Part shown: positions 13,528 to 62,567 of the stretch, in pieces
Numbering within the stretch: the stretch's first letter is position 1
Layout of the letters: every line of letters begins with the position of its first letter
IMG/VR virus record: IMGVR_UViG_3300017763_004709
Location: 1 to 64,000 of that record
Direction: 5' to 3' (one strand)
Source of the DNA: a virus
DNA length: 64,000 nt
Program-made: the position numbers and the translations under genes
The notes under the pieces: generated by a model
Seen by the model: the letters and a program-made list of their open reading frames with translations, nothing else
Told to the model about the DNA's origin: nothing
Databases searched by the model: none

Positions 13528-13556
13528 ATAATATAATATATTTAATCACTAAGCAA
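13528..13556 (-). promoter_or_regulatory. Sigma70-type T5-like promoter
   Basis: TTGCTT-N17-TATTAT upstream of D15. Confidence 0.7.
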
Positions 13557-15936: not shown

Positions 15937-15964
15937 GCTTAGAGGTACAAAATGCTAAAATAAA

Positions 15965-15990
15965 ATAACCAGAGATTGCTCTCTGGTTAT
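15965..15990 (-). terminator. Hairpin/terminator after tRNA-Thr
   Basis: ATAACCAGAGA-TTGC-TCTCTGGTTAT followed by T-run on minus strand. Confidence 0.7.
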
Positions 15991-15996
15991 AATTAA

Positions 15997-16072
15997 TGGT
16001 GCTCCCACACGGACTCGAACCGCGGACCTATTGATTACAAATCAATTGCTCTACCAGCTGAGCTATAGGAGC
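15997..16072 (-). tRNA. tRNA-Thr(UGU)
   Basis: Cloverleaf GCTCCTA...TTTGTAA...GTTCGAG...TGGGAGCACCA. Confidence 0.95.
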
Positions 16073-16073
16073 T

Positions 16074-17204
16074 TTATAAACTAAATCCTTCGAATGATTT
16101 ATCACTAACATCTTTTTTTGTGCCACCGATAACATAACTAGAAATTTCAGTTTCTTGAGGGGCTACTTGTACTTCTGCCCCACTTATCCATTTTTGAGTC
16201 CAAGGAAGAGGGTTAGCTCTAGGAACACTAAAATCAGGCTTTACTCCTGCAGCTACTAGTCTTTTATGAGTTATCCACTCTACGTAGTCACTTAGTAATT
16301 GAGCATTCAAACCAATCATTGAACCATCTTTAAATAAGTATTCTGCCCATTGTTTTTCCTGCTCCATAGCTTCTGTAAACATACTTCTAACAGTATCCTC
16401 ACACTCAGGAATAATAGTAGCATAATCAGGATCATCTTTAGGTAATAATTTAATCATTTGCTGTGTGGAGGCAAGATGTAAGTTTTCATCGCGGGCAATT
16501 AATTTAATAATCTTAGCGTTGCCTTCCATCTTCTTTAGTTCGGCAAATGCCCAACTACATGCAAAGCTTACATAGAAACGAACACCTTCTAAGATATTAA
16601 CACTAGCTATGCAAAGATACAATAATTTTTTAAGCTCATACATATCAACTACGTACTTTTCACCATTAATTGTGTGGGTTCCCTCACCAAATAATTGATA
16701 TAGTTTGCTTAATCTTAGAAGCTCATCATAGTACTTAGTAATATCAGAGGCGCAGTCTGTGATCTCAGTAACATTCATCATCTCATCAAATATAATACTA
16801 GGATTAGTATAAATATTTCTAATAATATGAGTGTAGCTACGAGAGTGAATAGATTCACTAAAAGTCCAAGTTAAAATCCAATTTTCTAACTCTGGAAGAC
16901 CTACTATTCCTCCAAAAGCTTCTACAGGAGCTCTTCCTTGAACAGAATCTAGTAAGATTTGCCGTTTTAAGTTTGCAGTAAAAATATGCTGCTCATGCTC
17001 TGTTAAACCTCTAAAATCTTTACTATCTTTAGTTACATCTATCTCTTCTGGGCGCCAAAAGAAACCTAACTGCTTATCTGTAAGTTTATCAAATTGTTTA
17101 TACTTTAAAGTATCATACCTCTGAATGTCTACTCCTCCTTCGGGATCTAAAAACATTAGGGAGGTTAAGTGTTTATTTCTGCTGTTTTCATTTAATACTG
17201 ACAT
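16074..17204 (-). CDS. nrdB: Class Ia ribonucleotide reductase beta subunit
   Basis: FFWRPEE, LLDSVQGR, EGVRFYVSF, DENLH, QVAPQE. Confidence 0.97.
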   Translation of the reverse strand: MSVLNENSRNKHLTSLMFLDPEGGVDIQRYDTLKYKQFDKLTDKQLGFFWRPEEIDVTKDSKDFRGLTEHEQHIFTANLKRQILLDSVQGRAPVEAFGGIVGLPELENWILTWTFSESIHSRSYTHIIRNIYTNPSIIFDEMMNVTEITDCASDITKYYDELLRLSKLYQLFGEGTHTINGEKYVVDMYELKKLLYLCIASVNILEGVRFYVSFACSWAFAELKKMEGNAKIIKLIARDENLHLASTQQMIKLLPKDDPDYATIIPECEDTVRSMFTEAMEQEKQWAEYLFKDGSMIGLNAQLLSDYVEWITHKRLVAAGVKPDFSVPRANPLPWTQKWISGAEVQVAPQETEISSYVIGGTKKDVSDKSFEGFSL

Positions 17205-40461: not shown

Positions 40462-40581
40462 TTAGTGACCCCTTAATTCCTTATTTATTTTTTGTCTTGT
40501 TTTCTTATTAGATAGTTGTTTTAGTTTCTTTTTCCATGCCCTAGATAGTGCATGAGGTATTACGCCGTTTTTAGGATTCAT
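40462..40581 (-). CDS. Basic micro-protein (39 aa; not in ORF track)
   Basis: AGGAG RBS; MNPKNGVIPHALSRAWKKKLKQLSNKKTRQKINKELRGH. Confidence 0.6.
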   Translation of the reverse strand: MNPKNGVIPHALSRAWKKKLKQLSNKKTRQKINKELRGH

Positions 40582-40591
40582 TTTTATACTC

Positions 40592-40759
40592 CTATAAAGA
40601 AACTATGCTAGTACTTCCTTTTTCCTTATTAATAATCTTACTATTATACTTTCTAAGCCTATTAAACTGGCTAGGCCGTCTATAGGGTGCAAACTTTAAA
40701 GGATTATTATGGAGTTTTTCTACAGCTTCATTGATAATTTTATCTTTTTCAGTATTCAT
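40592..40759 (-). CDS. Basic micro-protein (55 aa; not in ORF track)
   Basis: MNTEKDKIINEAVEKLHNNPLKFAPYRRPSQFNRLRKY...; downstream of a promoter. Confidence 0.55.
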   Translation of the reverse strand: MNTEKDKIINEAVEKLHNNPLKFAPYRRPSQFNRLRKYNSKIINKEKGSTSIVSL

Positions 40760-40788
40760 GCGTTACTCTCTTTTTTATTATATAGTTA

Positions 40789-40817
40789 ATATTAACACTA
40801 AAAATAGTAGTTAGCAA
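40789..40817 (-). promoter_or_regulatory. Sigma70-type promoter for micro-ORFs/tmRNA/GT cluster
   Basis: TTGCTA-N17-TAATAT with extended TG. Confidence 0.65.
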
Positions 40818-40830
40818 CAAAAATTTAAAT

Positions 40831-41097
40831 TTAAGATTTGGAGTTTGGTGTATTTTTTTGCTTCTTTGTGTAGCCTGCTTTTCTTTCTAACTTTTGCATA
40901 AGAGCTTGTCTTTTAGCTTCTGCTTTTCTGTACCTAGCTTTACCAGCTTTTTTAGCTTCTCTAAGTTTTTCAGATTTAGAAACATAGTAACTTTGTCTTT
41001 TAGCATCTGTATAGAACCCATCGGCATTTAGTTTTCTCATCATAATTTTATATGCTTTAGAGACATCATTATTATATTTTTTTATACTTATTTTCAT
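40831..41097 (-). CDS. rpsU: Ribosomal protein bS21
   Basis: NNDVSKAYKIMMRKLNADG...KRQSYYVSKSEKLR matches the bS21 pattern; TAATG-coupled start 41097. Confidence 0.85.
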   Translation of the reverse strand: MKISIKKYNNDVSKAYKIMMRKLNADGFYTDAKRQSYYVSKSEKLREAKKAGKARYRKAEAKRQALMQKLERKAGYTKKQKNTPNSKS

Positions 41098-41405
41098 TAA
41101 TTTACCTTTATATAGTTTTGTATCCAAGAAGATAAGTGTCCTGCAGAATATTTACCTATAAGTTTGGATATAACTCCATTATTTTTAGTTACCACAAACA
41201 TAGGTGTTGTAATATTTTTTGAGAGGTCTGCACTGTTTACACTTTCTGTATTAATTCCTAGATCTTGCAGGGTGAGCAGTTCTCGTTGCACATAGGTTTT
41301 ATTAAATTTGTTAAAATATCCTGTAACCTTCTTCAACTTATTTCTCCTATTAGTCTGACACTTTTTAAGAGTAGACATATTTTGATTTAATTTTATTCTT
41401 GCCAT
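41097..41405 (-). CDS. Hypothetical protein (possible degenerate thioredoxin fold)
   Basis: NITTPMFVV.KN....KLIG; no CxxC. Confidence 0.45.
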   Translation of the reverse strand: MARIKLNQNMSTLKKCQTNRRNKLKKVTGYFNKFNKTYVQRELLTLQDLGINTESVNSADLSKNITTPMFVVTKNNGVISKLIGKYSAGHLSSWIQNYIKVN

Positions 41406-41456
41406 TTATAATTTTTCATGCTAATATTAATTTATAACAACAGGTAAGCAAATAAT

Positions 41457-52958: not shown

Positions 52959-52987
52959 TTGCTTAATAGTTTATATTTAATTATTAT
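52959..52987 (+). promoter_or_regulatory. Promoter, probably for a leaderless transcript
   Basis: TTGCTT-N17-TATTAT, 6 nt before ATG 52994. Confidence 0.65.
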
Positions 52988-52993
52988 TGTATA

Positions 52994-53344
52994 ATGGAAA
53001 ATTTATTTAGCGCTTTTATACTATTGTTTTTTGTTATACTTCCTTTGGTAGCTATATTCAGCTTTACATCAAAGGTAACAAGTGGTATATATTACTGGGC
53101 AGATTCTCAGCACCCACAAGAAACCTACGATTACACAGAACAGCGGGCATTCCCAAAAACTACTACACCCCTTATTAAGGATTCTCCTCTAGTATTGAAA
53201 TACCCATTAGCAAAATCAGATAAAAATAAAATGGAAGATTATTTAGGGTACTCACTAGAATATGAAGATTCTAGTGAATTCAAAAACTTTTTAGATAATA
53301 ATGACTTTGATGTTAGGGAGCATTTAAAAGTTAAAAAAGGATGA
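52994..53344 (+). CDS. Hypothetical membrane-anchored protein
   Basis: N-terminal TM helix. Confidence 0.6.
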   Translation: MENLFSAFILLFFVILPLVAIFSFTSKVTSGIYYWADSQHPQETYDYTEQRAFPKTTTPLIKDSPLVLKYPLAKSDKNKMEDYLGYSLEYEDSSEFKNFLDNNDFDVREHLKVKKG

Positions 53345-58414: not shown

Positions 58415-58443
58415 TTGCATAGATACTTATTAAATGTTAATAT
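58415..58443 (+). promoter_or_regulatory. Sigma70-type promoter
   Basis: TTGCAT-N17-TAATAT with extended TG. Confidence 0.6.
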
Positions 58444-60038: not shown

Positions 60039-60617
60039 ATGTCTACCGTACATAAGATATTAAAAAATGCGTTAAAAAACATGAACTATGTAGGCTCCGG
60101 GTGTTATGCTGCTGCTTTTGATAGTAATAAAGAAATAGTTAAAATAGGAGCAGATATATTTGACCCTTATTTATATTATCTAAGAGAAATAAAATCATTA
60201 AAAAATACACATTTTCCTAAATTTCATAGTTTATATGTAGATAACTATAATGAGTTTTATACTGTAAAGCTAGAGAAACTATATCCTTTAAATGATAAAC
60301 AACTTAAAGATTACGAACAACTATACGACTGGGCAGTAAAAGGAGAAGATAAACCTTGTTGGGCTAGTGAAGAGCTAGAAGAAGCTGTTAATAAGATAGT
60401 AGATTTAGCAGATGTAATATCTTTACAACCTTCAGAGGATTTAGAGTATGAAGGGCAGACAGGAGATTGTAGATTAGACCTTCATGAAGCCAATGTAATG
60501 AGTCGATCTGATGGGACATTAGTATTTACAGATCCTCTTTCAGATGCCCAAATGTTTGATGCCCCTGCTATAGAAGAGTGGATAGATGACTATCTTTATT
60601 ATACCAATAAAAAGTAG
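60039..60617 (+). CDS. Protein kinase-like (T7 gp0.7-type fold)
   Basis: GSGCYAAAF, IVKI, DLHEANVM, FTDP. Confidence 0.75.
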   Translation: MSTVHKILKNALKNMNYVGSGCYAAAFDSNKEIVKIGADIFDPYLYYLREIKSLKNTHFPKFHSLYVDNYNEFYTVKLEKLYPLNDKQLKDYEQLYDWAVKGEDKPCWASEELEEAVNKIVDLADVISLQPSEDLEYEGQTGDCRLDLHEANVMSRSDGTLVFTDPLSDAQMFDAPAIEEWIDDYLYYTNKK

Positions 60618-60625
60618 TTTTATTC

Positions 60626-60654
60626 TTGCTTATTACTTATTTTAATAGTATTAT
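60626..60654 (+). promoter_or_regulatory. Promoter of the tRNA cluster (leaderless first ORF)
   Basis: TTGCTT-N17-TATTAT, 6 nt before ATG 60661. Confidence 0.7.
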
Positions 60655-60660
60655 GATTAT

Positions 60661-60813
60661 ATGATGAAAAAACAAATAAAATTTAATATAAAATCTGTAG
60701 AAGATTTACATAAACAAATGAATGAGTGGGTAGATGCAAATCTACCTATAGAAGAGATAAATAATACTAACTTAGCGGCTACAATGCTAAAAAGTATAGG
60801 AATAAAAGTATAG
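60661..60813 (+). CDS. Small protein (50 aa; not in ORF track); stop codon overlaps tRNA-Arg G1
   Basis: MMKKQIKF...LKSIGIKV-TAG. Confidence 0.55.
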   Translation: MMKKQIKFNIKSVEDLHKQMNEWVDANLPIEEINNTNLAATMLKSIGIKV

Positions 60814-60889
60814 GTCTCTTAGCTCAGCTGGATAGAGCAAGTGCCTTCTAAGCACTAGGTCTCAGGTTCGAATCCTGAAGAGATCACCA
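60813..60889 (+). tRNA. tRNA-Arg(UCU)
   Basis: Cloverleaf; loop CTTCTAA; encoded CCA. Confidence 0.95.
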
Positions 60890-60890
60890 A

Positions 60891-61068
60891 GATAGGCAAA
60901 GGGGAAAGCCTAGCGATTTCGCTAAACGTACCCAACAAAGGTCCTAGACATGGAAGAGTGGCCCTCTAGTCTAGTCCGGTATAAGCACTGGTACCGCATA
61001 ACCCAGTCGGTTGCTGCATACGTCAAATGCAGATACGTGGGGAGGCACTGCAGAAAGCCTCCCCACCG
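60891..61068 (+). ncRNA. Candidate pseudoknot-rich RNA directly after tRNA-Arg
   Basis: GC-rich with six stems, including a 10-bp terminal helix. Confidence 0.6.
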
Positions 61069-61106
61069 ATTCTATAGAGTTATATCTATGTAACAAAGGA
61101 TACACT

Positions 61107-61265
61107 ATGAGAAGAGGTACTAAGCCTAACCCCATAGATTATATTAAAGTAAGAATAGATCTACTACGTGAAGAAAAGAAAAAAAACGAAGATAATACTG
61201 CTCACTTAGTATTAGATAAAGCAATTTATGAGTTAAGTGTTGTTTTAGATCTTCTAATAAGATAG
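61107..61265 (+). CDS. Small hypothetical protein
   Basis: AAGGA RBS before ATG 61107. Confidence 0.6.
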   Translation: MRRGTKPNPIDYIKVRIDLLREEKKKNEDNTAHLVLDKAIYELSVVLDLLIR

Positions 61266-61277
61266 TAGTTATACTAT

Positions 61278-61352
61278 TCCGGCGTAGCTCAGTGGTAGAG
61301 CAGTTGACTGTTAATCAATTGGTCGTAGGTTCGACCCCTACCGCCGGAGCCA
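61278..61352 (+). tRNA. tRNA-Asn(GUU)
   Basis: Cloverleaf; loop CTGTTAA; GCCA end. Confidence 0.95.
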
Positions 61353-61357
61353 AATTA

Positions 61358-61433
61358 GGGTCTGTAGCTTAGTGGTTAAAGCTGCCCGCTCATAACGGGT
61401 AGATCGTAGGTTCGAATCCTACCGGACCCACCA
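61358..61433 (+). tRNA. tRNA with CAU anticodon, probably Ile2
   Basis: GGGTCTG acceptor and CCGCTCATAACGG arm resemble proteobacterial Ile2; no initiator C1:A72 mismatch. Confidence 0.85.
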
Positions 61434-61436
61434 TAT

Positions 61437-61508
61437 ATGGGTGAAGTGTTAATGGTTGCACATCGGATTCCAAATCCGAAAGACAGAGTTCGATTCTTTG
61501 CACCTATG
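61437..61508 (+). tRNA. tRNA-Trp(CCA)
   Basis: ATGGGTG/CACCTAT acceptor; loop TTCCAAA; no encoded CCA. Confidence 0.85.
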
Positions 61509-61525
61509 CCCAAAGGAATATTAGT

Positions 61526-61750
61526 ATGTATACAGTAGAATTTGATCATGATGAAGTAATTATAACTATATTAGACGACTCAGGAAGTTTACCAGATCTA
61601 ATAATAAATAGTTATGACGATGGAGTATACATTACTCAAATGGATGAAGATGGTGATTATGATGATATACTTAACATAACTCCAGAAATGTGGCAAGAGT
61701 TGATTTTAGCTATAAACAGCTCAGAAGGAGCTTATGTTATAAAGAGATAA
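61526..61750 (+). CDS. Acidic hypothetical protein
   Basis: AAGGA RBS; MYTVEFDHDE. Confidence 0.65.
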   Translation: MYTVEFDHDEVIITILDDSGSLPDLIINSYDDGVYITQMDEDGDYDDILNITPEMWQELILAINSSEGAYVIKR

Positions 61751-61834
61751 GCCCGCGTGATGGAATGGTAGACATAACAGACTTAAAATCTGTGGCCGCA
61801 AGGCGTGCCGGTTCGAGTCCGGCCGCGGGTACCA
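61751..61834 (+). tRNA. tRNA-Leu(UAA)
   Basis: Long variable arm; loop CTTAAAA; CCA. Confidence 0.95.
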
Positions 61835-61839
61835 ACCAG

Positions 61840-61974
61840 CGTGACAACTACGCACTCAAATATACTCCGGACTCTGTATTGGTTGAGAAATAGTTGTACT
61901 TGTAAGTCGTACTTTGTAGAGTATTTACTTATTATCTGAGGGGGTTATATAAGTAAACATTCCAAAGAGCGACC
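61840..61974 (+). ncRNA. Candidate two-domain structured RNA after tRNA-Leu
   Basis: Two interrupted hairpins with a possible loop-loop contact, then a terminator. Confidence 0.5.
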
Positions 61975-62012
61975 ACAGCCCTCCTAGTTTTTTATACTAG
62001 GAGGGCTGTTTT
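61975..62012 (+). terminator. Intrinsic terminator of the tRNA cluster
   Basis: ACAGCCCTCCTAGT/ACTAGGAGGGCTGT 14-bp stem + TTT. Confidence 0.85.
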
Positions 62013-62078
62013 ACATCTAAACTTAATAAAATAAAATTTAACATTAGTCATAAATAATGATACTATAGAGTATATAAA

Positions 62079-62567
62079 ATGTTTACAAAACAACAAATTG
62101 AAGAATTAGTAGAATTACTAGTGACGCTGGATTCTAATACAAAAATATATCTAGGCTGCGATTCTGTAACTTACTTTAAAAATAATAGAAAAAAAGCAAA
62201 ATATGCTACGGTACTTATAGTACATAAAAATAGTAAAAATGGTTGTAAATTATTCTCTAATACCTCTTATGAAGTAGATTATGATTTAAAAAAAGACAGA
62301 CCTAAAATGAGAATGATTTATGAGGCTAGAAAAGTTTGTGAATTATATATACAAGTAGCGCCTTTTATAGATGAGTTTGATATAGAAATACATTTAGATA
62401 TAAACACAAATCCTAAGTTCGGATCTAATTGTGCTGCATCGGAAGCCGCTGGATATATTTTAGGTATGACAGGCATCACACCAAAATTAAAACCTTTTGG
62501 TTTTGCAGCGAGCTACGGTGCAGATAGTGTAGCCAAAGGTAGAGGAGTAGTTATTGTACCACACTAG
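62079..62567 (+). CDS. RNase H-like (YkuK/DUF458-type) protein
   Basis: IYLGCDS, EIHLDIN, AASYGAD. Confidence 0.8.
   Translation: MFTKQQIEELVELLVTLDSNTKIYLGCDSVTYFKNNRKKAKYATVLIVHKNSKNGCKLFSNTSYEVDYDLKKDRPKMRMIYEARKVCELYIQVAPFIDEFDIEIHLDINTNPKFGSNCAASEAAGYILGMTGITPKLKPFGFAASYGADSVAKGRGVVIVPH

What the first reader, a model, noticed from the sequence alone, without database searches (positions are those of the whole stretch)
60661..61751. Stop codons abut or overlap tRNA 5' ends, so tRNA maturation would create non-stop or zero-UTR mRNAs
Seen: the TAG of ORF 60661-60813 shares its G with tRNA-Arg nucleotide 1. ORF 61526-61750 ends immediately before tRNA-Leu G1 (61751). The nrdB stop (16074) is 1 nt from tRNA-Thr (16072). 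Established: RNase P cuts just 5' of tRNA position 1, and tmRNA acts on ribosomes at mRNA 3' ends. Inference: processing removes the stop of the first ORF and leaves almost no 3' UTR on the others. This would couple tRNA maturation to tagging and degradation, and could be a job for the phage tmRNA.
Basis: partly seen in the sequence, partly recalled or inferred. Interest (0 to 1): 0.7.

Follow-up and report, generated by a model that had tools for sequence, protein, structure and literature searches.

The report
Phage genes ending at tRNA starts
In this compact marine phage three genes end exactly at, or one base into, the start of a tRNA gene, so cutting out the tRNA should leave messages with no stop codon or no tail; this is real and shared by relatives, but it is a known kind of overlap that most likely comes from tight gene packing, and no evidence ties it to the phage's own ribosome-rescue RNA.

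Summary
The TAG of ORF 60661-60813 shares its G with tRNA-Arg G1. The TAA of ORF 61526-61750 abuts tRNA-Leu G1. The nrdB TAA lies 1 nt from tRNA-Thr.

Both small ORFs are real genes. ORF50 has omega 0.18-0.33 in frame (permutation P=1.5e-4). ORF74 belongs to a family found in marine phages.

In all 7 ORF50 alleles found, the stop is never independent of the tRNA. It either shares G1 or is the tRNA's own U8-A9-G10 (10-nt overlap). In the sister clade ORF74 reads 18 nt into tRNA-Leu.

So canonical RNase P cleavage must give non-stop or UTR-less mRNAs.

The adaptive part, a job for the phage tmRNA, is unsupported:
- About 48% of ORF-ORF spacings in this genome are also 1 nt or less.
- The nrdB junction is lineage-specific: 79 other NrdB loci have no tRNA there.
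- One other ORF-tRNA junction in related phages shows spacers from -1 to +85 nt.
- tmRNA co-occurrence is clade inheritance.

The concept is published (Hudson, Lau & Williams 2014; E. coli secG-leuU), and this scan met it before on other DNA, mostly judged a packing by-product.

Verdict: a new, unusually well conserved phage instance of a known kind; moderate interest.

The parts
60626..60654 (+). Promoter-like site TTGCTT-N17-TATTAT. The ATG of ORF50 begins 7 nt after the -10 hexamer, so the message is predicted to be leaderless.
   Evidence: The motif TTGCWT-N16-18-TAWWAT occurs 6 times in the window against 1.2 expected, and 0 of 100 shuffles reach 6. Five of the six sit just upstream of co-oriented ORFs. 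Hexamers and spacing are kept in the L113/L114 relatives. Function is inferred.
60661..60813 (+). ORF50, a 50-aa protein of unknown function. Its TAG shares its last base with tRNA-Arg G1.
   Evidence: Seven alleles at 68-100% aa identity. Omega is 0.18-0.33 in frame against 1.1-1.2 in the other frames. Permutation P=1.5e-4. No Pfam match reaches its cut-off and there is no PHROG match.
60813..60889 (+). tRNA-Arg (anticodon UCU), CCA encoded.
   Evidence: Rfam tRNA 68.4 bits.
60890..61070 (+). Conserved GC-rich structured RNA directly after tRNA-Arg. It belongs to the same predicted transcript.
   Evidence: No Rfam family. The 3' part is conserved in relatives, and 10 of 27 predicted pairs show compensatory changes.
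61107..61265 (+). ORF52 with an AAAGGA ribosome-binding site. Its stop lies 12 nt before tRNA-Asn.
   Evidence: Absent from the L113/L114 clade. No family match.
61278..61512 (+). tRNA-Asn (61278-61352), tRNA-Met (61358-61433) and tRNA-Trp (61436-61512), separated by 5 and 2 nt.
61526..61750 (+). ORF74. There is a 13-nt gap after the CCA of tRNA-Trp that holds the AAGGA site. Its TAA directly abuts tRNA-Leu G1.
   Evidence: Homologues occur in roseophages and many marine viral contigs. Omega is 0.18 against L113. The model has five strands plus a helix at pLDDT 82 and no significant PDB match.
61751..61834 (+). tRNA-Leu (anticodon UAA), G1-U72, CCA encoded.
61835..61974 (+). Conserved non-coding RNA after tRNA-Leu.
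   Evidence: By eye in the alignment it is better conserved against L113 than the ORFs are (73-77% nt identity). Its own identity was not computed. Four compensatory pairs. No Rfam family.
61975..62013 (+). Terminator-like hairpin (13 bp, 9-nt loop, T run) that closes the mixed tRNA/mRNA unit.
   Evidence: Sequence. Conserved, with one compensatory pair. The simple scan missed it; its loop limit is 8 nt and this loop is 9 nt.
16074..17204 (-). nrdB (class Ia ribonucleotide reductase small subunit). TAA at 16076-16074, one A, then the tRNA-Thr.
   Evidence: The C-terminus ...SL-stop matches relatives.
15997..16072 (-). tRNA-Thr (anticodon UGU) at the end of the nrdAB unit.
   Evidence: Present only here and in the 99% relative L029. 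Absent behind nrdB in 79 other loci and in G008.
15957..15988 (-). Terminator-like hairpin plus T run, 8 nt after the tRNA-Thr CCA.
   Evidence: Sequence. Same layout as E. coli secG-leuU-terminator (PMC2241853).
40115..40458 (-). Circularly permuted two-piece tmRNA of alphaproteobacterial type, tag ANDNFAPSNYALAA.
   Evidence: RF04321 127 bits, RF01849 118.5 bits. Found in 4 of 5 related records. No SmpB, poly(A) polymerase or RF-1 domain in the 75.8-kb record.
40462..40581 (-). 39-aa very basic ORF with an AGGAG site. Its TAA is 3 nt before the ARAGORN start of the tmRNA, and inside the Rfam match, which starts at 40468.
   Evidence: 86-95% aa identity in relatives, with spacers of 3 nt (L124) and 1 nt (L126) and an overlap with the ARAGORN start in L123. 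No family match.

Best explanation
The region 60626-62013 is one mixed operon. It has a sigma-70-like promoter, a probably leaderless ORF50, tRNA-Arg, a structured RNA and ORF52. Then come tRNA-Asn, tRNA-Met and tRNA-Trp, ORF74, tRNA-Leu, another small RNA and a terminator. nrdA-nrdB-tRNA-Thr-terminator is a second such unit.

In this very compact phage (about 88% coding, and about half of neighbouring genes overlap or touch) the spacers between protein genes and the following tRNA have been deleted to nothing. An ORF that loses its own stop simply reads on to the first in-frame stop inside the tRNA. For ORF50 the likely ancestral stop is the tRNA's own U8-A9-G10.

The small proteins are made by ribosomes that translate the unprocessed precursor, following the polymerase. 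A ribosome at the stop covers the 5' acceptor strand, so translation and tRNA folding exclude each other on one molecule.

Once RNase P cuts 5' of G1 (inferred from the established mechanism), three things follow:
- The ORF50 message ends in ...UA, or ...AA in relatives, with no stop.
- The ORF74 and nrdB messages end 0-1 nt after their stop, with no protective hairpin.
- These messages are then expected to be short-lived, like E. coli secG mRNA after RNase P separates it from leuU.

Any ribosome still on such a message is released by ordinary ribosome rescue, that is the host and/or phage tmRNA with host SmpB. The arrangement is a tolerated by-product of packing, not a device built around the tmRNA.
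For: Exact junctions.

Packing: 48% of same-strand ORF spacings are 1 nt or less, and coding fraction is 0.88. In related phages nrdB usually overlaps the next gene by ATGA.

Real genes.

Junction states in relatives:
- ORF50 overlaps by 1 nt (2 alleles) or 10 nt (5 alleles, stop = tRNA positions 8-10).
- ORF74 spacer is 0, or an 18-nt overlap.
- ORF50's last residues change with the acceptor stem: VS with GGTCTCT, VT with GGTCACG.

Instability elsewhere:
- nrdB-tRNA-Thr occurs only in the window and a 99% relative.
- 63/64-aa ORFs that precede a tRNA in related phages have spacers of 85, 29, 38 and -1 nt. Their homology was not checked.

Operon limits: promoter class and terminator.

Precedents:
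- E. coli secG-leuU has a 14-nt spacer. RNase P cleavage is followed by secG mRNA decay with a half-life under 30 s (PMC2241853).
- T4 segB ends 5 nt before tRNA-Arg, which is followed by the small stable RNAs rnaD and rnaC.
- Hudson, Lau & Williams 2014 counted 250 same-orientation, CDS-upstream overlaps among 115,660 bacterial t(m)RNA genes and read them as candidate non-stop mRNAs (PMC4131195).
Against: - Zero spacer at ORF50/tRNA-Arg persists in all 7 alleles across dS about 0.66. It also survives an in-frame 6-nt indel right at the junction. That could mean the contact is selected.
- Both phage lineages with a 1-nt TAG/G1 overlap (this clade and G008) carry an alpha-type tmRNA.
- The tmRNA unit and the tRNA unit each lie downstream of a site of the same promoter-like motif.
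- No transcript ends, RNase P cleavage or protein products were observed. Every step after the DNA sequence is inference.
Confidence: 0.6

Rival explanations
1. Programmed non-stop design. ORF50 (and ORF74 in the sister clade) are meant to lose their stop when the tRNA is excised. Only a short co-transcriptional burst of protein would then escape tagging by the phage tmRNA, whose tag ends in the degradation signal ALAA. This would act as a timer, or as an ArfA-like sensor of trans-translation or RNase P capacity.
For: - No ORF50 allele has a stop free of the tRNA.
- The tmRNA is present in the clade and in G008.
- The tmRNA lies in a translation island with bS21 and two basic micro-ORFs, one of which also abuts the tmRNA.
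- A site of the same promoter-like motif lies upstream of both units.
- Precedent for the logic: arfA mRNA, as cited in PMC4131195.
Against: - tmRNA co-occurrence amounts to one or two inheritance events.
- ORF50 and ORF74 show no likeness to ArfA or any rescue factor.
- The window lineage evolved a new stop at the earliest position that spares the tRNA, after a 6-nt duplication. That looks like uncoupling rather than maintenance.
- The spacing matches genome-wide packing.
- Two-piece tmRNAs occur in other marine phages, where different roles have been proposed (PMC9004378).
Confidence: 0.12
2. Translation gates tRNA maturation. A ribosome finishing ORF50 or ORF74 unfolds the acceptor and D stems, so translation rate sets how fast tRNA-Arg and tRNA-Leu are released, or the reverse. 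The overlap would be a regulatory link between the small proteins and tRNA supply.
For: A ribosome footprint at a stop placed at -1, 0 or +10 must cover the 5' acceptor strand. This follows from the geometry of the junctions and from established knowledge of ribosome footprints. E. coli shows that nearby structure, such as terminators, can inhibit RNase P processing of secG-leuU (PMC2241853).
Against: No data. The effect would be transient. The junctions are not kept outside the small clade.
Confidence: 0.1
3. Mitochondrion-like stop repair. After RNase P cleavage the ORF50 message ends in UA, and 3' tailing with A completes a UAA stop, as in animal mitochondria.
For: The truncated stop is exactly UA in the window lineage. 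Non-templated A residues on processed secG-leuU species are noted in PMC2241853.
Against: - No poly(A) polymerase family gene in the 75.8-kb record.
- Relatives would end in ...AA of an AAG codon, where tailing gives lysine codons and not a stop.
- The host's tailing enzymes are unknown.
Confidence: 0.05
4. Artefact. ORF50 is not a gene but the 5' leader of the tRNA precursor, so there is no stop codon issue at that junction.
For: No Shine-Dalgarno sequence before the ATG. No family match reaches its cut-off. Low-confidence fold, pLDDT 63.5.
Against: - Omega is 0.18-0.33 in frame against about 1.1-1.2 out of frame.
- Permutation P=1.5e-4 for so few amino-acid changes and no stop.
- The indel is in frame.
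- The ATG sits at the predicted transcription start, as at 52994.
Confidence: 0.03

Closest known systems
Same-orientation CDS/t(m)RNA gene overlaps predicted to give non-stop mRNAs (Hudson, Lau & Williams 2014, PMC4131195), for example Carsonella smpB-ssrA and Helicobacter FtsW-family CDS/tRNA-Ile
   Same: A protein gene runs up to or into the 5' end of a co-oriented tRNA or tmRNA gene. Maturation of the RNA is expected to remove the stop and create a trans-translation substrate.
   Different: Those cases are bacterial, rare (250 of 115,660 t(m)RNA genes) and mostly single events in closely related genomes. Here it is a phage, several junctions lie in one genome, the stop is donated by tRNA positions 8-10 in most relatives, and the phage carries its own tmRNA.
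E. coli secG-leuU co-transcript (Mohanty & Kushner, PMC2241853)
   Same: An mRNA followed by a tRNA and a terminator in one transcript. RNase P separates them and the upstream mRNA then decays within seconds. The nrdB-tRNA-Thr-terminator layout is the same.
   Different: E. coli keeps a 14-nt spacer, so the stop codon survives. Here the spacer is +1, 0 or -1 nt.
Mitochondrial tRNA punctuation with incomplete stop codons
   Same: mRNAs are flanked directly by tRNAs. After excision ORF74 would carry a 13-nt 5' UTR and no 3' UTR. The ORF50 stop would be truncated to UA.
   Different: Mitochondria complete the stop by polyadenylation and use this layout genome-wide. No poly(A) polymerase was found here, and only a few genes are affected. 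No paper in the searchable library links the model to phages.
Phage T4 tRNA cluster
   Same: tRNA genes interleaved with small ORFs. segB ends 5 nt before tRNA-Arg, and the cluster ends with the small stable RNAs rnaD and rnaC, as this operon ends with a conserved small RNA.
   Different: T4 keeps spacers of 5 nt or more, and no T4 ORF takes its stop from a tRNA. No sequence similarity beyond the tRNAs.
Two-piece tmRNA of marine phages such as Melnitz and the pelagimyophages (PMC9004378)
   Same: A permuted alphaproteobacterial-type ssrA in a marine phage, with no smpB found in the phage record here.
   Different: In Melnitz it is reported behind a glutamine riboswitch. No such riboswitch reached the Rfam threshold here. 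Here it follows bS21 and two basic micro-ORFs.

Membership tests
CDS/t(m)RNA same-orientation overlap giving non-stop mRNA (Hudson et al. 2014) | A valid tRNA gene, called by two methods with the same 5' end | tested here: met
   ARAGORN and Infernal RF00005 give the same 5' ends: 60813, 61751, 16072.
CDS/t(m)RNA same-orientation overlap giving non-stop mRNA (Hudson et al. 2014) | A functional protein-coding CDS upstream, on the same strand, whose stop lies in or across the tRNA 5' end | tested here: met
   ORF50 overlaps by 1 nt here and by 10 nt in five alleles, and is under purifying selection. ORF74 and nrdB touch the tRNA but do not overlap it here. ORF74 overlaps by 18 nt in L113/L114/L132.
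CDS/t(m)RNA same-orientation overlap giving non-stop mRNA (Hudson et al. 2014) | tRNA maturation actually yields a stop-less mRNA | not testable with these tools
   Only contigs of RNA libraries were available, and they cannot show ends.
mRNA-tRNA co-transcript separated by RNase P (secG-leuU type) | No promoter or terminator between CDS and tRNA, and a terminator after the tRNA | tested here: met
   There is no room between the genes (0-1 nt). Hairpin plus T run at 15957-15988 on the minus strand and at 61975-62013.
mRNA-tRNA co-transcript separated by RNase P (secG-leuU type) | One transcript spans CDS and tRNA | tested here: inconclusive
   RNA-library contigs bridge 60062-60847 (X16) and 61324-61797 (X15), but DNA carry-over cannot be excluded.
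Mitochondrial-type tRNA punctuation | mRNAs directly flanked by tRNAs on both sides | tested here: met
   ORF74 lies 13 nt after the tRNA-Trp CCA and 0 nt before tRNA-Leu.
Mitochondrial-type tRNA punctuation | A truncated stop completed by polyadenylation | tested here: inconclusive
   A truncated UA is predicted for ORF50. No PolyA_pol domain in the record, which is 67% complete. Relatives would end in AA of a lysine codon.
Trans-translation system | A tmRNA with a tRNA-like domain and a tag reading frame | tested here: met
   RF04321 127 bits, RF01849 118.5 bits, tag ANDNFAPSNYALAA.
Trans-translation system | The SmpB partner | tested here: not met
   No PF01668 match in the 75.8-kb record. 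The host would have to supply it. The record is incomplete.
ArfA-like rescue factor expressed from a non-stop mRNA | Sequence or fold likeness to ArfA (PF03889) | tested here: not met
   No Pfam match to ArfA for ORF50, ORF52, ORF74 or the 39-aa and 55-aa ORFs. The ORF74 fold has no significant PDB match.

The most novel reading that the evidence does not exclude
The contact is functional. ORF50 (and ORF74 in the sister clade) can only be finished on the unprocessed precursor. RNase P excision of the tRNA turns every later copy into a non-stop message. Its product is then tagged through the phage's own tmRNA, which sits in a bS21/micro-ORF translation island. That would give a burst-limited protein or an ArfA-like sensor of rescue or RNase P capacity, and would be the first natural substrate assigned to a phage tmRNA.
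Probability: 0.1. Interest if true: 0.75.

Novelty: new member of a known kind. Interest (0 to 1): 0.38.

Why it matters
What phage-encoded tmRNAs do is an open question. The proposals in PMC9004378 are upkeep of the hijacked translation machinery or selective tagging of host proteins. This clade offers defined candidate substrates encoded by the phage itself. In most relatives ORF50 cannot keep a stop codon once tRNA-Arg is excised. If the phage tag (ANDNFAPSNYALAA) differs from the host's, tagged products could be attributed to the phage RNA.

For annotation, it shows that a conserved, selected phage gene can legitimately end inside a tRNA gene, with its stop at tRNA positions 8-10. Pipelines that forbid CDS/tRNA overlap will truncate or drop such genes.

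If, as is more likely, the arrangement is only a tolerated cost of packing, it still marks how far spacer loss can go.

Tried and rejected
- **RNA evidence.** One run search and one lay gave only Logan contigs of four marine RNA libraries. Contigs bridge both junctions, but even depth over coding and non-coding parts, and the tool's own warning, leave DNA carry-over open. A single 151-nt pair (60508-60658 and 60660-60810) in an oligo-dT library is one fragment and says nothing about ends.
- **Phage isolate database.** DNA search found only tRNA matches. ORF50 has no protein match there. The tmRNA matches only short stretches in two alphaproteobacterial phages.
- **Function of the ORFs.** Pfam and PHROGs gave nothing for ORF50, ORF52 or ORF74. 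One sub-threshold MXRA7 hit was ignored. The ORF74 model (pLDDT 82) has no PDB match at E of 0.001 or better. The ORF50 model is of low confidence and was not searched.
- **Rfam.** At a permissive threshold it gave no family for the two non-tRNA RNAs. The Phe_leader hit (32.6 bits against a gathering score of 55) was rejected.
- **tmRNA association.** Four other related records are small fragments without a tmRNA match and say nothing.
- **Simple promoter/terminator scan.** It missed both the promoter class and the terminator because of its fixed rules.
- **Distant ORF50-like C-terminal motif in L011.** 19 residues, hhalign probability 80%. Too weak to count as a homologue.
Full report
**What the window is.** The window is the first 64 kb of a 75.8-kb IMG/VR viral record, estimated 67% complete. 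It is 32.7% G+C and about 88% coding.
- It carries nrdA/nrdB, a circularly permuted alphaproteobacterial-type tmRNA and six tRNAs.
- Public runs that hold the stretch are seawater, marine and viral metagenomes.
- Two-piece tmRNAs are already described in marine phages such as Melnitz and the pelagimyophages (PMC9004378).

**The observation.** ARAGORN and Infernal agree on every tRNA 5' end. Reading the sequence gives the following.
- TAG 60811-60813 of ORF50 ends on G1 of tRNA-Arg.
- TAA 61748-61750 of ORF74 is followed at once by G1 of tRNA-Leu (61751).
- On the minus strand, the nrdB TAA (16076-16074) is followed by one A and then G1 of tRNA-Thr (16072).
- A fourth ORF (61107-61265) stops 12 nt before tRNA-Asn.
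- A 39-aa basic ORF stops 3 nt before the ARAGORN start of the tmRNA.

**Is the spacing unusual?** Not in itself. With rough ORF calls, 48% of same-strand neighbours in this genome lie 1 nt or less apart. Three of four ORF-tRNA junctions at 1 nt or less then has P about 0.28. In 79 related NrdB loci, nrdB most often overlaps the next gene by ATGA. Tight contact is the rule in this phage group.

**Are the ORFs genes?** ORF74 has homologues in roseophages and in 23 marine viral contigs, with omega 0.18 against L113.

ORF50 was found on 7 viral and 6 metagenome contigs, some probably the same DNA, as 7 protein alleles at 68-100% identity.
- Omega is 0.18-0.33 in its frame and 1.1-1.2 in the other two frames.
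- 35 random substitutions give as few amino-acid changes, and no stop, in only 1.5e-4 of trials.
- The one indel is in frame.

It has no Shine-Dalgarno sequence, but its ATG lies 7 nt after the -10 hexamer of a promoter-like motif, TTGCWT-N16-18-TAWWAT.
- The motif occurs six times against 1.2 expected.
- Five of the six sites face ORF starts.
- One other site, at 52994, has the same leaderless geometry.
- The motif and its spacing are kept in the L113/L114 clade.

**Conservation of the junctions.** This is the main new result.
- *ORF50/tRNA-Arg.* No allele of ORF50 has a stop upstream of the tRNA. Two alleles (the window type and L128) use TAG sharing G1. Five alleles (L027/L130, L028/L131, L129, L113, L114/L132) read AAG-GTC-(TCT or ACG)-TAG. 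They take their last two residues from the acceptor strand and their stop from tRNA positions 8-10. Where the acceptor stem differs (GGTCACG instead of GGTCTCT), the last residue changes from S to T.
- *Likely history.* The outgroup state suggests that the 10-nt overlap is ancestral. L028 carries a 6-nt duplication of the junction (...KVKVS). The window lineage then gained TAG at the earliest position that spares the tRNA (inference).
- *ORF74/tRNA-Leu.* The spacer is 0 nt in the window group and an 18-nt overlap in L113/L114/L132.
- *nrdB/tRNA-Thr.* This junction exists only in the window and a 99% relative.
- *Other phages.* In more distant phages ORF74 is followed by another ORF, not a tRNA. 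There, 63/64-aa ORFs that precede a tRNA have spacers of 85, 29, 38 and -1 nt. The homology of those ORFs was not checked. The -1 case (L011) is a second TAG/G1 overlap in a different phage.

**What must follow, and what is only possible.** Bacterial RNase P cuts 5' of nucleotide 1 (established).
- After that cut the ORF50 message cannot contain a stop. It ends in ...UA here and ...AA in relatives.
- The ORF74 and nrdB messages end 0 and 1 nt after their stops, without the terminator hairpin.
- The nearest studied case is E. coli secG-leuU, with a 14-nt spacer. There RNase P makes the separating cut and secG mRNA then disappears with a half-life under 30 s (PMC2241853).
- Hudson, Lau & Williams (PMC4131195) already asked how many mRNAs become non-stop through overlap with t(m)RNA genes. 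They found 250 CDS-upstream cases among 115,660 bacterial t(m)RNA genes.
- T4 has segB 5 nt before tRNA-Arg, followed by two small stable RNAs. That layout is echoed here by conserved non-coding RNAs after tRNA-Arg and tRNA-Leu.

**The link to the phage tmRNA.** The tmRNA is genuine.
- In favour of a link:
  - It is present in 4 of the 5 related records searched, and the fifth is a fragment.
  - It is present in G008, the other phage with a 1-nt overlap.
- Against reading much into this:
  - These are one or two inheritance events.
  - The remaining relatives are fragments.
  - No SmpB, RF-1-domain protein or poly(A) polymerase was found in the record.
  - Neither small protein resembles ArfA or any known factor.
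  - RNA-library contigs bridge both junctions but cannot show ends or exclude DNA.

**Verdict.**
- Most likely (about 0.6), this is a tRNA-punctuated mixed operon produced by spacer loss in a very compact genome. The small proteins are made from the precursor, and rescue of the resulting non-stop messages is a tolerated cost.
- A designed non-stop timer or sensor served by the phage tmRNA remains possible (about 0.1) and would be interesting. It needs end mapping and tag detection.
- The same pattern was met earlier in this scan on other DNA (e1-6000563, e1-5687205, e1-5652323, e1-5053484), and three of those four follow-ups judged it mainly a packing by-product. By those notes' own verdicts, which I did not check, two of those phage overlaps were unstable among relatives. 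Here the contact is kept across the whole (small) clade and the ORFs are demonstrably selected.

Noticed in passing
window 13528-13556(-), 41424-41451(-), 52959-52987(+), 58415-58443(+), 60626-60654(+): A promoter-like motif class, TTGCWT-N16-18-TAWWAT (mostly TTGCTTA), occurs 6 times against 1.2 expected. Five sites sit just upstream of co-oriented ORFs. At 52994 and 60661 the ATG starts 7 nt after the -10 hexamer, which predicts leaderless messages. The sixth site (38085) lies inside an opposite-strand ORF and is probably chance.
   Followed up: partly
window 61835-61974 and 60890-61070: Two conserved non-coding RNAs lie inside the tRNA operon, and neither has an Rfam family. The one after tRNA-Leu looks better conserved against L113 than the flanking ORFs (alignment; its identity was not computed) and has four compensatory pairs. 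The 3' half of the one after tRNA-Arg has ten. Their placement recalls T4 rnaD and rnaC behind tRNA-Arg. Other first-stage notes cover them (e1-6078038, e1-6078057, e1-6078040).
   Followed up: partly
window 40462-41127 (-): A translation island precedes the tmRNA: a bS21 homologue (PF01165, 30.1 bits), a 55-aa ORF and a 39-aa very basic ORF with an AGGAG site. The 39-aa ORF's stop lies 3 nt before the ARAGORN start of the tmRNA. The 39-mer is 86-95% conserved in relatives, and in L123 it overlaps the ARAGORN start of the tmRNA. No glutamine riboswitch, as reported before the Melnitz ssrA, reached the Rfam threshold here.
   Followed up: partly
window 60039-60617 (+) and 62079-62567 (+): The tRNA operon is flanked by two notable genes. 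One is a T7 gp0.7-like protein kinase (phrog_15752, E=6e-16; that family is annotated as acting on RNase E and RNase III). The other is a PF04308 RNase H-like protein (56 bits). Either could bear on RNA processing of the operon. This was not tested.
   Followed up: no
L028:3139-3162, L027:3139-3156, compared with window 60799-60822: There is a 6-nt in-frame duplication of the ORF50/tRNA-Arg junction (AAAGTC-AAGGTC, giving ...KVKVS) in one allele. The window allele looks derived from it by two substitutions that create the junction TAG. If so, the ORF's last codons were copied out of the tRNA's 5' end.
   Followed up: partly
L127:911-1148: A contig with an identical ORF50 and tRNA-Arg has tRNA-Met and tRNA-Gly directly behind tRNA-Arg, in place of the structured RNA, ORF52 and tRNA-Asn. 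The cluster is modular and reshuffles between near-identical phages.
   Followed up: no
L011:2648-2737: In a related phage, a tRNA called Ser with the unusual anticodon ACT has its G1 shared with the TAG of a 63-aa ORF. The preceding 61-aa ORF ends in a motif (LASQMLNDIGVKTK) that resembles the ORF50 C-terminus (hhalign probability 80% over 19 residues).
   Followed up: partly
L113:4328-4414: In the sister clade, tRNA-Leu has U at -1 opposite discriminator A73. That could extend the acceptor stem by one pair and shift or blur the RNase P site there.
   Followed up: no
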